From a virus (taxonomy: Duplodnaviria; Caudoviricetes), in the IMG/VR virus record IMGVR_UViG_3300032327_000953, positions 160,001 to 224,000 of that record: DNA of 64,000 nucleotides, one strand, 5' to 3'. Positions 5,128 to 6,924 of the stretch are shown in pieces. The stretch's first letter is position 1; every line of letters starts with the position of its first letter. The translations under genes were made by a program, and so were the position numbers. Under the pieces are notes generated by a model. That model was not told the origin of the DNA and made no database searches. It worked only from the letters and a program-made list of their open reading frames with translations.

Positions 5128-5745
5128 ATGGATACGATAGTTGGTCAGAAAGTATTCTTTACTGCTGATCTTCACCTTGGACATAGAAATATCATAGGAT
5201 ATTGTAATCGTCCTTTTTCTAGTGGTGGAGAAATGGATGCTAAAATTATTTCTTCTATAAACGAAACTGTTGGACAAAACGATATTCTTTATATTATAGG
5301 AGATTTCTGCCATAAGGGTGGAACTGCTCTATCTTATAGAGAAAGAATAGTTTGTGAGAATGTTCATATTATTCTTGGTAATCATGATGAGCCAACCAAA
5401 TTCACTAGTGGATTTTCTAGTGTCTCTGATCAGAAAATGATTCTGTATATTAATCAAAAAATATTTATGTGCCATTATCCTATGAGAAGTTGGTCTGGTA
5501 GCTATAGAAAAAGCTGGATGCTATATGGTCATGTTCATGGTAGACTTCATCGTGAGGACGTTGCTTCTGGAACGCTCACGCTTGATGTAGGCGTGGATAA
5601 TAAAAGAGATGGGGTAGAGTTTGGTACTCCTTGGAGTTTTAAAGACGTTCAACAACAATTTCTGGCGAGAACGAAAAAAATTTCAAGGTCGCCCATTGAC
5701 AATGACGATACTCTGTTGTACAATCGAAGGAACAACGCGAGGTAA
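5128..5745 (+). CDS. calcineurin-like metallophosphoesterase
   Basis: DLHLGH, GD, GNHD, CHYP and GHVH motifs. Confidence 0.9.
   Translation: MDTIVGQKVFFTADLHLGHRNIIGYCNRPFSSGGEMDAKIISSINETVGQNDILYIIGDFCHKGGTALSYRERIVCENVHIILGNHDEPTKFTSGFSSVSDQKMILYINQKIFMCHYPMRSWSGSYRKSWMLYGHVHGRLHREDVASGTLTLDVGVDNKRDGVEFGTPWSFKDVQQQFLARTKKISRSPIDNDDTLLYNRRNNAR
5696..5724 (+). promoter_or_regulatory. sigma70-type promoter inside the 3' end of the phosphoesterase gene
   Basis: TTGACA-17 nt-TACAAT. Confidence 0.8.
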
Positions 5746-5804: not shown

Positions 5805-6089
5805 ATGGCTGAAGTTACTACTACTGATAAGCAGAGTCGTGTTCGTTGTGATGATGATACTTTTCTTGAGGCAGTTTTTTCCAGCAAGACTTATGCTGAG
5901 ATTGCTGTAAAGACTGGTCAGAAGGTTGCTAGTACGATGGCTCGTTATGCTCGTACAAAGGCTGCTCTTGCTAAGAAGGGTATTGACCTTCCTGCGATGG
6001 AACGAGCAAAGCCTGTTAAGACTGTGGATAATGTCGAAGCTATGGCTGAGACTGTTCGCCGCCTAAAGGCTGCTCATTCTAACGGCTGA
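5805..6089 (+). CDS. small basic, probably DNA-binding (HTH-like) early protein
   Basis: GGAGG RBS; TYAEIAVKTGQKVASTMARY helix pattern. Confidence 0.6.
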   Translation: MAEVTTTDKQSRVRCDDDTFLEAVFSSKTYAEIAVKTGQKVASTMARYARTKAALAKKGIDLPAMERAKPVKTVDNVEAMAETVRRLKAAHSNG

Positions 6090-6106: not shown

Positions 6107-6194
6107 ATGCTTCCAACTACATCCCTCATAAAAATTAGTAGAGACACATAGACAAACATCTAACTAATTGTTATGATATGTAGCTTGGAGGTAT
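6107..6194 (+). other. long rod-like RNA hairpin directly upstream of the tRNA
   Basis: 6107-6122 pairs with 6178-6194, 6126-6131 with 6171-6176, 6133-6138 with 6164-6169, 6139-6142 with 6159-6162. Confidence 0.7.
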
Positions 6195-6196
6195 AC

Positions 6197-6471
6197 GGGA
6201 GCGTAATCCAATGGCAGAGATAAAGGACTTATACAATTTGAGTGCGTAAAGAGAAATCTTTAATGTAGAACCTGTCAAATTCGGTGGAGGCTTAACTGCT
6301 AATACCGAGCCAAGCTTAATAGAAATATTATGAAGGTGTAGAGACTTGACGGCAGGAACCTAAAACGAAAGTTATGGTTAAGATAAAGTCCAGACCACAA
6401 ACAGAAATGGTAGTGAAAACTATAGTGGTAAGAAAATCCTTCAAGTGTGGGTTCGAGTCCCACCGCTCCTA
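6197..6471 (+). tRNA. trnL-UAA: tRNA-Leu(UAA), exons 6197-6230 and 6433-6471, short variable loop, CCA not encoded
   Basis: Spliced form GGGAGCG TA ATCCAATGGCAGAGAT A AAGGA CTTAAAA TCCTT CAAGT GTGGG TTCGAGT CCCAC CGCTCCT A folds as a cloverleaf. Confidence 0.92.
6231..6432 (+). ncRNA. ORF-less group I self-splicing intron (IC3-like, 202 nt)
   Basis: Inserted after U34; P1 U6230:G6240 wobble; P3 CCTGTC/GGCAGG; P4 TTCGGT/ACCGAG; P7 GAGACT/AGTC; GAAA tetraloops; terminal G6432. Confidence 0.92.
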
Positions 6472-6924
6472 CTTATTTTTTCCACGATAATTATCGGTTA
6501 AGGCATGACAGTTTGGGCAAAGTAAAATTAGATTAGTTAACTCATTATTATAATGATCTCCGTCAATATGATGGAGTTCTAGAGGTATAGAGTGATTTAA
6601 CCATTTGGTTTGTTTGCATTTAGAACACTTATGTTCAAAAACATTCTCAGATAATAATCTTTTCTTTAGCCTAAAACTCTGAACAACAGAATTCTTAGTG
6701 AGATAAAAATGGACAGGTTTTTTAGGGCCAGTAATTTTTCCTTTATTCCAAGACTGACCGCCGAAATGAGAAGTATCAATACTATATTTAGATATTCTTC
6801 TTTTAACTGTTTGATAATTACCTCCCGCTGGAACAATACCAAGTTTATCTAATACTTGTCTAATTGAACGAGAATTTTGAACAGCATTTTTGAGATCATC
6901 GACCGAATATTTATGTCTTTCCAT
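6469..6924 (-). CDS. free-standing HNH endonuclease
   Basis: CSKC..LELHHIDGDHYNNELTNLILLCPNCH; GGAG RBS on the minus strand. Confidence 0.9.
   Translation of the reverse strand: MERHKYSVDDLKNAVQNSRSIRQVLDKLGIVPAGGNYQTVKRRISKYSIDTSHFGGQSWNKGKITGPKKPVHFYLTKNSVVQSFRLKKRLLSENVFEHKCSKCKQTKWLNHSIPLELHHIDGDHYNNELTNLILLCPNCHALTDNYRGKNK

What the first reader, a model, noticed from the sequence alone, without database searches (positions are those of the whole stretch)
6197..6471. Phage tRNA-Leu(UAA) carrying a cyanobacterial/plastid-position group I intron
Seen: a 202-nt intron after U34 with recognisable P1-P9, U:G splice-site pair and terminal G. Known: this is the insertion site of the IC3 trnL(UAA) intron of cyanobacteria and plastids. 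Here it is in a phage tRNA with a short variable loop, G1:U72 and no encoded CCA. Inference: phages may carry tRNA introns between lineages, and the unspliced precursor hides the anticodon.
Basis: partly seen in the sequence, partly recalled or inferred. Interest (0 to 1): 0.7.

Follow-up and report, generated by a model that had tools for sequence, protein, structure and literature searches.

The report
Self-splicing intron in phage leucine tRNA
A 238-kb uncultured phage carries a leucine tRNA gene split in its anticodon by a complete, mobile self-splicing (group I) intron; the call is right, but such introns, and this short-armed kind of leucine tRNA, turn out to be common in phages although I found no paper reporting a group I intron in a phage tRNA gene.

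Summary
Confirmed. Window 6197-6471 (+) is a tRNA(UAA) gene interrupted after U34 by a 202-nt group I intron (6231-6432): Rfam Intron_gpI 55.4 bits (cut-off 50), and ARAGORN in intron mode gives the same boundaries. Related phage contigs carry the same locus without the intron, joined exactly at the predicted splice junction. On 31 phage homologues, 95% of cells pair in my P1-P9 model and 28 of 55 pairs show compensatory changes.

It is not a one-off. At least 61 of the first 120 IMG/VR contigs sharing the core motif have this intron in trnL(UAA). So do two GenBank jumbo phages, where it is unannotated, and 64 of 120 bacterial genomes from many phyla, not only cyanobacteria.

The short variable loop, G1.U72 and A73 are traits of a large phage family of type I tRNA-Leu. 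That family also occurs in cultured phages and as a chromosomal tRNA in some Actinomycetota.

Both the intron and the adjacent HNH endonuclease gene are optional among near-identical relatives, so this is most likely a selfish homing unit, not a regulator.

TTA is the phage's commonest Leu codon, yet rIIA and rIIB avoid it entirely.

This scan has already noted the same intron in other phage genomes.

The parts
6149..6177 (+). promoter-like site (TAGACA, 17 nt, TG-TATGAT) about 20 nt upstream of the tRNA 5' end
   Evidence: Consensus scan, 10 of 12 matches. The stretch is conserved in the syntenic relatives L058, L040 and L313 (alignment A2). Function is inferred.
6197..6230 (+). tRNA 5' exon (nt 1-34: acceptor 5' strand, D arm, anticodon stem 5' strand, C32 U33 U34)
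   Evidence: ARAGORN intron mode; identical or compensated exons in 99 distinct family members.
6231..6432 (+). 202-nt ORF-less group I intron. P1 6227-6230/6240-6243 with U6230.G6240; P2 6246-6263 (GAAA loop); P3 6271-6276/6351-6356; P4 6280-6286/6303-6309; P5 6289-6300; P6/P6a 6310-6336 (GAAA loop); P7 6343-6347/6386-6390 (pseudoknot); P8 6357-6379; P9/P9a 6394-6429 (GAAA loop); terminal G 6432.
   Evidence: Rfam 55.4 bits; RNAalifold consensus; pair counts; helix coordinates.
6433..6471 (+). tRNA 3' exon (A35 A36 to A73); followed by CTT, so no encoded CCA
   Evidence: intron-less alleles.
6469..6924 (-). free-standing HNH endonuclease gene (151 aa), convergent with the tRNA; its stop codon overlaps the last 3 nt of the tRNA
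   Evidence: ORF list; phrog_10822 'HNH endonuclease', E 1.7e-46; Pfam HNH only below cut-off. The gene is absent from the otherwise about 92% identical L058, L014 and L025. Homologues lie within 150 nt downstream of 14 of 77 viral intron-bearing tRNA genes.

Best explanation
This is a working phage gene for a type I (short variable loop) tRNA-Leu(UAA). It has been invaded by a compact, ORF-less group I intron of the classical trnL(UAA) 34/35 type. The gene is probably transcribed from its own conserved promoter-like site. The intron folds (P1-P9, with the P3/P7 pseudoknot), and an exogenous guanosine attacks after U34 at the U.G pair of P1. The terminal G6432 then takes the G-binding site and the exons are ligated, restoring the loop CUUAAAA. 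RNase P and the host CCA-adding enzyme finish the tRNA, and host LeuRS charges it. The tRNA then reads UUA (and UUG), the commonest leucine codon of this 35% GC genome. The intron itself is most likely a selfish mobile element with no benefit to the phage. It spreads among phage tRNA-Leu(UAA) genes of both the short-arm and long-arm kind. In this phage it probably spreads together with the adjacent free-standing HNH endonuclease, which would cut intron-less alleles in co-infecting relatives (collaborative homing). Shown here: the intron's presence, boundaries and conserved covarying structure; its presence/absence polymorphism; the HNH association; the codon usage. Inferred: splicing activity, leucylation, the HNH target and homing.
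For: Intron identity and boundaries. Structure on 31 phage homologues: 95.4% of cells paired against 27-44% when partners are slid; 28 of 55 pairs changed on both sides; 0 of 500 shuffles as good; U.G at the 5' splice site in 31 of 31; P7 100% paired with one pair covarying A:U/U:A. Optional element at one locus: L313, L339 and L245 lack the intron, with the exact junction; L058, L014 and L025 have the intron but no HNH; the window and L099 have both. The spliced L014 tRNA is identical to the intron-less L313 tRNA. Mobility between tRNA bodies: type I and type II exons are interleaved on the intron tree (at least 6 changes forced by starred branches), and L040 has type II exons at the same locus with the same promoter and a similar intron. 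HNH: phrog_10822; within 150 nt downstream of 14 of 77 viral intron-bearing tRNAs, 0 of 90 bacterial ones, and only 3 hits anywhere in the 120 intron-less loci; a homologue lies inside a 687-nt trnL intron in a Bacilli MAG (L238). tRNA function: 99 distinct family members have all four stems about 100% paired with many compensatory changes, A73 in 99 of 99 and U8-A9 in 98 of 99. The D arm has the same layout as type II tRNA-Leu. Demand: TTA is 37% of Leu codons, 29 per 1000 codons. Precedent for charging type I tRNA-Leu in a bacterium: Fan et al. 2019, PMC6614811.
Against: P6a has a U.U mismatch in this clade. The Rfam score is only 5 bits above the cut-off, and three clear homologues (L001-L003) fail it. 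Fan et al. report that other bacterial LeuRS tested charge only type II tRNA-Leu, so leucylation of a type I tRNA by the unknown host is an assumption. Only 18% of viral intron-bearing tRNA loci have the HNH neighbour, and it occurs in both orientations, so the HNH may home on its own rather than with the intron.
Confidence: 0.8

Rival explanations
1. The intron is a timing or metabolic gate. The phage's UUA-reading tRNA becomes available only after self-splicing (which needs guanosine, Mg2+ and correct folding). TTA-free early genes are therefore translated first, and TTA-rich genes wait, as with bldA in Streptomyces.
For: Eight genes with at least 12 Leu codons have no TTA at all, among them rIIA (0 of 67), rIIB (0 of 29) and a ligase-like gene (0 of 39), against a genome mean of 37%. 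TTA share varies from 0.15 to 0.54 between 10-kb bins. The tRNA gene sits among these genes on the same strand.
Against: Close relatives with the same promoter and the same tRNA lack the intron (L313, L339, L245), so the intron is dispensable. Any TTA gate would work through the tRNA gene itself, with or without an intron. TTA share also correlates with GC3 (r = -0.67), so part of the pattern is general composition. There are no expression data.
Confidence: 0.1
2. The spliced RNA is not a leucine tRNA. A type I body with anticodon UAA might be charged by another synthetase, or act as a decoy or spare that escapes host nucleases aimed at the long variable arm or anticodon loop of host tRNAs.
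For: Bacterial tRNA-Leu is almost always type II (PMC6614811). All 64 bacterial intron-bearing trnL(UAA) genes sampled are type II, against 16 of 61 viral ones that are type I (Fisher p = 3e-6). G1.U72 is unusually frequent (77 of 99).
Against: A73 is invariant and the D arm (3-bp stem, C13.A22, loop AAYGGCAG) has the type II tRNA-Leu layout. The same type I body occurs with the three leucine anticodons UAA, CAA and UAG in cultured phages. In five high-GC Actinomycetota genomes it is the only tRNA gene found with the ACUUAAAAU loop, in one case beside a pyruvate kinase gene. S. coelicolor LeuRS charges a type I tRNA-Leu (PMC6614811).
Confidence: 0.07
3. The intron is a decayed, non-splicing remnant and the gene is a tRNA pseudogene.
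For: No direct evidence of splicing. There is a U.U mismatch in P6a, and the Rfam score is only just above the cut-off.
Against: All core helices, the U.G pair, the terminal G and three GAAA tetraloops are intact. The intron is 99% identical to the L099 copy and lies a path distance of 0.029 from the L014 copy, inside a clade under clear structural constraint. The exons keep perfect stems. TTA is the most used Leu codon, and ARAGORN finds no other tRNA-Leu in the genome.
Confidence: 0.03

Closest known systems
Group I intron of tRNA-Leu(UAA) in cyanobacteria, plastids and many other bacteria (subgroup IC3 in the literature; type 'Leu.3Ug', CUU/a...g/AAAA, in Williams 2020, bioRxiv 10.1101/2020.01.27.920355)
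   Same: Same host gene, same insertion site (34/35), U.G at the 5' splice site and a terminal G. It shares a 20-nt core (J6/7-P7-P3') and groups with cyanobacterial and Bacteroidota copies on the intron tree.
   Different: It sits in a phage, not a cell. It is shorter (202 nt; viral median 200 against bacterial median 236). Its exons are a type I tRNA-Leu, which none of the 64 bacterial examples has. It is flanked by a free-standing HNH gene.
Azoarcus tRNA-Ile(CAU) group I intron (about 205 nt, the model compact IC3 ribozyme)
   Same: Similar size and the same minimal architecture without P5abc, with GAAA tetraloops and a receptor-like P8. The sequence likeness of the core is from my memory of the Azoarcus sequence and was not tested here.
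   Different: Different tRNA and insertion position; a bacterial host.
Collaborative homing of an ORF-less intron with a neighbouring free-standing endonuclease (cyanophage S-PM2 psbA intron with F-CphI; T4 mobE and seg genes); from my own knowledge of the literature
   Same: An ORF-less group I intron next to a free-standing HNH gene. Both are present or absent independently among close relatives, and a homologue of the HNH is intron-encoded elsewhere (L238).
   Different: The target is a tRNA gene, not a protein gene. No cleavage site is known, and only 14 of 77 viral loci show the pairing.
Type I tRNA-Leu(CAA) of Streptomyces coelicolor (Fan et al. 2019, PMC6614811); short-variable-loop tRNA-Leu(TAG) in mycobacterial tRNA clusters (PMC6582537)
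   Same: A bacterial-world tRNA-Leu with a short variable loop. The window's spliced tRNA is 64 of 73 identical to a chromosomal type I tRNA-Leu(UAA) of a high-GC actinobacterium.
   Different: Anticodon UAA rather than CAA or UAG. Phage-borne and interrupted by an intron. G1.U72 is frequent.
'Enigmatic' tRNA introns of Lak megaphages (Devoto et al. 2019, PMC6784885)
   Same: Introns in phage tRNA genes, present or absent between variants.
   Different: Those introns were left unclassified and called 'enigmatic' by the authors. This one is a full group I ribozyme.

Membership tests
Group I intron (Rfam RF00028) | Covariance-model match above the curated cut-off | tested here: met
   55.4 bits against 50, E 2.4e-11, full model 1-253.
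Group I intron (Rfam RF00028) | P1 with a U.G wobble at the 5' splice site, and a terminal G before the 3' splice site | tested here: met
   U6230.G6240 and G6432; both invariant in 31 of 31 homologues.
Group I intron (Rfam RF00028) | Conserved core P3-P9 with the P3/P7 pseudoknot, supported by covariation | tested here: met
   95.4% of cells paired; 28 of 55 pairs with compensatory change; slid controls 27-44%.
Group I intron (Rfam RF00028) | Guanosine-dependent self-splicing | not testable with these tools
trnL(UAA) 34/35 intron (IC3, 'Leu.3Ug') | Inserted between U34 and A35 of a tRNA with anticodon UAA | tested here: met
   ARAGORN intron mode; intron-less alleles.
trnL(UAA) 34/35 intron (IC3, 'Leu.3Ug') | Sequence kinship with cyanobacterial trnL introns; compact core without P5abc | tested here: met
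   Shared 20-mer core. The phage clade is sister to Cyanobacteria plus Bacteroidota copies with support 98/95. P5 is a 3-bp hairpin. The label IC3 itself is taken from the literature and was not recomputed.
Canonical bacterial tRNA-Leu (type II) | Long variable arm (more than 10 nt) | tested here: not met
   5-nt variable loop CAAGU.
Canonical bacterial tRNA-Leu (type II) | A73 discriminator and Leu-type D arm (3-bp stem, G18G19 in an AAYGGCAG-type loop) | tested here: met
   A73 in 99 of 99 family members; same D-arm layout as type II copies.
Type I tRNA-Leu (phage family; Streptomyces-like) | Short variable loop with a leucine anticodon, conserved cloverleaf, and recurrence in independent genomes | tested here: met
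   At least 120 intron-less viral loci, 99 distinct sequences. Cultured phages P-SSM7 and ZC03 (UAA), Moab (CAA), LP65 (UAG and CAA) and Thrax3 (UAG). 7 of 401 Actinomycetota genomes.
Type I tRNA-Leu (phage family; Streptomyces-like) | Charged with leucine by LeuRS | not testable with these tools
   Only the precedent of S. coelicolor LeuRS (PMC6614811).
Collaborative homing pair (ORF-less intron plus free-standing endonuclease) | Endonuclease gene next to the intron-bearing gene, with both polymorphic among relatives | tested here: met
Collaborative homing pair (ORF-less intron plus free-standing endonuclease) | Endonuclease cuts the intron-less allele near the insertion site | not testable with these tools
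   Needs a cleavage assay.

The most novel reading that the evidence does not exclude
The phage runs a bldA-like codon gate. A set of early genes (rIIA, rIIB, a ligase-like gene, a phosphoesterase) contains no TTA at all, while the rest of the genome uses TTA for over a third of its leucines. The rest therefore depends on the phage's single tRNA-Leu(UAA), whose supply is further delayed or tuned by the need to self-splice. On this reading the intron is a domesticated timer rather than a passenger.
Probability: 0.12. Interest if true: 0.75.

Novelty: new member of a known kind. Interest (0 to 1): 0.45.

Why it matters
The 2014 review of bacterial group I introns states that all phage introns seen so far were in protein-coding genes, despite the many phage tRNA genes (PMC3984707). 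Devoto et al. 2019 reported only unclassified 'enigmatic' tRNA introns in Lak phages. This locus and its relatives show that the classical self-splicing trnL(UAA) intron is common in phage tRNA genes, and that it moves between short-arm and long-arm tRNA-Leu genes, sometimes alongside an HNH nuclease.

There are practical consequences. Default tRNA finders miss these genes: ARAGORN found none in this window, and the copies in Atu_ph07 and LR756501 are unannotated. Phage tRNA counts and codon-supply analyses are therefore biased.

The exons also draw attention to a large, barely discussed family of type I tRNA-Leu in phages. That raises the question of how bacterial LeuRS enzymes, reported to need type II substrates, charge them.

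Tried and rejected
1. Default ARAGORN on the window found no tRNA; the intron mode was needed.
2. Rfam at gathering threshold on the three GenBank relatives (L001-L003) found nothing, although they are clear homologues. Rfam absence is therefore not informative for these compact introns.
4. Host inference from rIIA by tblastn: best hits are only 25-38% identical and come from enterobacterial phages, which is uninformative.
5. Host inference from the type I tRNA. I first read the hits in 7 of 401 Actinomycetota, against 0 of 802 Pseudomonadota and Bacteroidota (p = 4e-4), and the 88% identity to an actinobacterial tRNA, as pointing to an actinobacterial host. I then found the same type I tRNA-Leu in cultured phages of Prochlorococcus, Pseudomonas, Bacillus, Lactobacillus and Streptomyces. 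The tRNA body does not identify the host, and I leave the host open.
6. The 54-aa ORF inside the intron (6299-6463, minus strand) lies on the wrong strand across conserved core helices, so I treat it as spurious.
7. ARAGORN's 'tRNA-Tyr(ata)' calls on 14 viral loci are trnL(UAA) introns with the boundary misplaced by 2 nt.
8. Literature searches for a published group I intron in a phage tRNA gene found none. Paywalled papers were not searched.

Full report
WHAT IS THERE. The window is bases 160001-224000 of a 238,135-bp virus record with direct terminal repeats. Between a small gene ending at 6089 and a convergent gene at 6469-6924 lies the stretch 6197-6471. Rfam's Intron_gpI model matches 6220-6414 on the plus strand at 55.4 bits (gathering score 50, E 2.4e-11) over the full model. 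It is the only Rfam hit in the window and the only group I hit in the whole genome.

Default ARAGORN sees no tRNA in the window. With introns allowed it calls tRNA-Leu(taa) with a 202-nt intron between nucleotides 34 and 35, i.e. 6231-6432. The spliced sequence is called tRNA-Leu(UAA) with a 5-nt variable loop, a G1.U72 pair, A73 and no encoded CCA.

INDEPENDENT CHECK OF THE BOUNDARIES. Related viral contigs carry the same locus, with a conserved upstream gene, a conserved promoter-like site and a conserved downstream gene.
- L313, L339 (with L251 and L336) and L245 have an uninterrupted tRNA in which GGACTT is joined directly to AAAATCC.
- L058, L014 and L025 have the intron.
- The intron-less tRNA of L313 is identical to the predicted spliced product of L014, L025 and L058.

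STRUCTURE. I aligned the window with 30 distinct viral trnL introns (alignment A1).
- RNAalifold recovered the anticodon stem, P2, P3, P4, P5, P8, P9 and P9a, with compensatory changes in 24 of 43 pairs.
- I added P1, P6/P6a and the P7 pseudoknot by hand. With that model, 95.4% of cells form standard pairs, against 27-44% when the 3' partners are slid by 1-3 columns.
- 28 of 55 pairs change on both sides, and none of 500 shuffles reaches any of the five observed measures.
- The U.G pair at the 5' splice site and the terminal G are invariant. P7 is 100% paired, with one pair switching between A:U and U:A.
- In window coordinates: P1 6227-6230/6240-6243; P2 6246-6263; P3 6271-6276/6351-6356; P4 6280-6286/6303-6309; P5 6289-6300; P6/P6a 6310-6336; P7 6343-6347/6386-6390; P8 6357-6379; P9/P9a 6394-6429.
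- P2, P6a and P9a end in GAAA tetraloops. There is no P5abc extension and no ORF on the intron's strand.
- The one blemish is a U.U mismatch in P6a, shared with the closest relatives.

HOW COMMON IT IS. A 20-nt core motif (J6/7-P7-P3') was found in at least 120 IMG/VR contigs and at least 120 GTDB species genomes.
- After correcting ARAGORN's boundary slips, 61 viral loci and 64 bacterial loci carry this intron at 34/35 of trnL(UAA).
- Other viral loci have related introns in tRNA-Arg(UCU), Lys(UUU), Lys(CUU), Met/Ile(CAU), Thr(UGU) and others.
- In GenBank, the 735-kb phage LR756501 and Agrobacterium phage Atu_ph07 carry intron-bearing trnL(UAA) genes that are not annotated. Microcoleus phage My-WqHQDG has a 286-nt 'tRNA-Arg' with a 213-nt intron inside it.
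- The bacterial carriers are mostly Pseudomonadota and Acidobacteriota, with Cyanobacteriota third. This agrees with Williams 2020, who mapped 5,292 such introns in bacterial tRNA genes and named this type Leu.3Ug.
- 'Cyanobacterial/plastid' is thus the historical name of the site, not its range.

LITERATURE. [quoted passage not shown] Devoto et al. 2019 wrote that introns in phage tRNAs had not been reported before their 'enigmatic' Lak phage examples (PMC6784885). I found no paper describing a group I intron in a phage tRNA gene. Notes of this scan show that the same intron has already been picked up in several other phage genomes.

THE tRNA BODY. The short variable loop is not an accident of this gene.
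- A pattern for an uninterrupted short-arm tRNA(UAA) hits at least 120 further viral contigs, and ARAGORN of those 120 hits tRNA-Leu(taa) of 73-78 nt.
- Across 99 distinct sequences, all four stems are about 100% paired with many compensatory changes. A73 is invariant, U8-A9 and a C13.A22 mismatch are nearly so, and G1.U72 occurs in 77 of 99. The pattern itself fixed part of the variable loop and T stem, so I draw no conclusion from those positions.
- The D arm has the same length and loop as type II tRNA-Leu.
- The same body is annotated as tRNA-Leu in cultured phages of unrelated hosts: Prochlorococcus P-SSM7 and Pseudomonas ZC03 (UAA), Streptomyces Moab (CAA), Lactobacillus LP65 (UAG and CAA) and Bacillus Thrax3 (UAG).
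- In cells, the pattern was found in 7 of 401 Actinomycetota genomes and in none of 802 Pseudomonadota and Bacteroidota genomes (p = 4e-4).
- In the five Actinomycetota genomes checked, it is the only tRNA gene found with the ACUUAAAAU loop. It sits in 62-66% GC DNA, once beside a pyruvate kinase gene.
- The window's spliced tRNA is 64 of 73 identical to one of these actinobacterial tRNAs, including G1.U72.
- Fan et al. 2019 showed that S. coelicolor LeuRS charges a type I tRNA-Leu(CAA), whereas other bacterial LeuRS tested did not (PMC6614811). A mycobacterial genomics paper noted in passing a short-loop tRNA-Leu(TAG) in a tRNA cluster that also holds an HNH gene (PMC6582537).
- I conclude that the gene encodes a member of a real, constrained type I tRNA-Leu family. 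Its charging by the unknown host's LeuRS is an inference. Because cultured phages of five different phyla-level hosts carry the family, it does not reveal the host.

MOBILITY. On a maximum-likelihood tree of 69 introns, 31 of 33 viral copies form one group (support 89/99). That group is sister, at 98/95, to a small Bacteroidota plus Cyanobacteria group. Two viral copies sit among alphaproteobacterial introns. The tree is unrooted, several rows have long branches, and the sample is biased by the exact-motif scan.

Within the viral group, type I and type II exons are interleaved, with at least 6 changes forced by well-supported branches. L040 shows the exchange directly. It has the same promoter, the same downstream gene and a similar intron, but long-arm tRNA-Leu exons. 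All 64 bacterial hosts of the intron are type II, against 16 of 61 viral ones that are type I (p = 3e-6).

THE HNH NEIGHBOUR. The convergent 151-aa ORF is an HNH endonuclease (phrog_10822, E 1.7e-46; Pfam only below cut-off).
- It is an insertion relative to L058, L014 and L025, which are otherwise about 92% identical.
- Homologues lie within 150 nt downstream of 14 of 77 viral intron-bearing tRNA genes, in either orientation, and of none of 90 bacterial ones. Only 3 of the 120 intron-less loci have a hit anywhere.
- In a Bacilli MAG (L238) a homologue lies inside a 687-nt trnL intron.
- An intron-less relative (L339) keeps about 30 nt matching the HNH gene's 3' end.
- This fits an intron plus free-standing endonuclease that home together or separately. 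The cleavage target is unknown.

WHAT THE tRNA IS FOR. The genome is 35% GC. TTA is its commonest leucine codon (37% of Leu, 29 per 1000 codons), and ARAGORN finds ten other tRNAs but no other tRNA-Leu. Eight genes with at least 12 Leu codons have no TTA, including rIIA (0 of 67), rIIB (0 of 29) and a ligase-like gene (0 of 39).

This confirms a lead from another note of the scan. It suggests that some early genes are written to be read without the phage tRNA. Because relatives with the same promoter lack the intron, I rate a regulatory role for the intron itself as unlikely (about 0.1).

VERDICT. The object is a new member of a known kind: the classical trnL(UAA) group I intron, here in a phage type I tRNA-Leu gene and accompanied by a free-standing HNH gene. 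It is one example of a widespread phenomenon that appears to be unpublished.

Noticed in passing
window 9656-12331 (rIIA), 12427-13326 (rIIB), 5128-5745, 2065-2787; genome 159508-160842: These genes contain no TTA codon (0 of 67, 0 of 29, 0 of 13, 0 of 16 and 0 of 39 Leu). TTA is 37% of Leu codons genome-wide, and interleaved genes use it heavily. TTA share per 10-kb bin ranges from 0.15 to 0.54.
   Followed up: partly
L040:10360-10800 (-): A close relative has, at the same locus and behind the same promoter, a long-arm (type II) tRNA-Leu(UAA) with a similar intron. The exons were swapped while the flanks and intron stayed.
   Followed up: partly
type I tRNA-Leu family (L245-L364, window 6197 and 6470): G1.U72 wobble in 77 of 99 distinct type I tRNA-Leu(UAA) genes, and in many phage type II copies and some actinobacterial ones. 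The bacterial copies I sampled mostly have G1:C72. I have no explanation.
   Followed up: no
L365-L371 (Actinomycetota genomes G247, G275, G288, G333, G351, G373, G399): High-GC Actinomycetota carry a chromosomal type I tRNA-Leu(UAA). In the five genomes checked it was the only tRNA gene found with the ACUUAAAAU loop, once next to a pyruvate kinase gene. It would be the counterpart of bldA, but short-armed.
   Followed up: partly
L002:1460-1821 (Agrobacterium phage Atu_ph07) and L001:1472-1762 (LR756501): Intron-bearing tRNA-Leu(UAA) genes that are not annotated in GenBank. In Atu_ph07 a 'hypothetical protein' CDS (AUZ94936.1) overlaps the 3' part of the intron and the 3' exon.
   Followed up: partly
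L010, L023, L043, L044, L056, L063, L069, L092, L104, L114, L121 and others: Related group I introns interrupt other viral tRNA genes (Arg-UCU, Lys-UUU, Lys-CUU, Met/Ile-CAU, Thr-UGU, Pro-UGG by ARAGORN). Splice sites were not checked one by one.
   Followed up: no
L238 (Bacilli MAG), 687-nt trnL(UAA) intron: A homologue (49% identity) of the window's free-standing HNH protein is encoded inside this bacterial tRNA-Leu intron.
   Followed up: no
L339, about 30 nt after the intron-less tRNA: A short remnant matching the 3' end of the HNH gene next to an intron-less allele. This suggests past loss of the HNH gene, and perhaps of the intron.
   Followed up: no
genome 157574-158560 (just upstream of the window): ARAGORN in intron mode calls a 'tRNA-Stop(tta)' with a 904-nt intron. 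No Rfam group I hit lies there, so it is probably a false call. Another note of the scan places a tmRNA-like gene in this area.
   Followed up: no
L381 (Lactobacillus phage LP65), L382 (Bacillus phage Thrax3): Cultured Firmicutes phages carry short-arm tRNA-Leu with anticodons UAG and CAA. In Thrax3 an HNH endonuclease gene lies immediately upstream.
   Followed up: no
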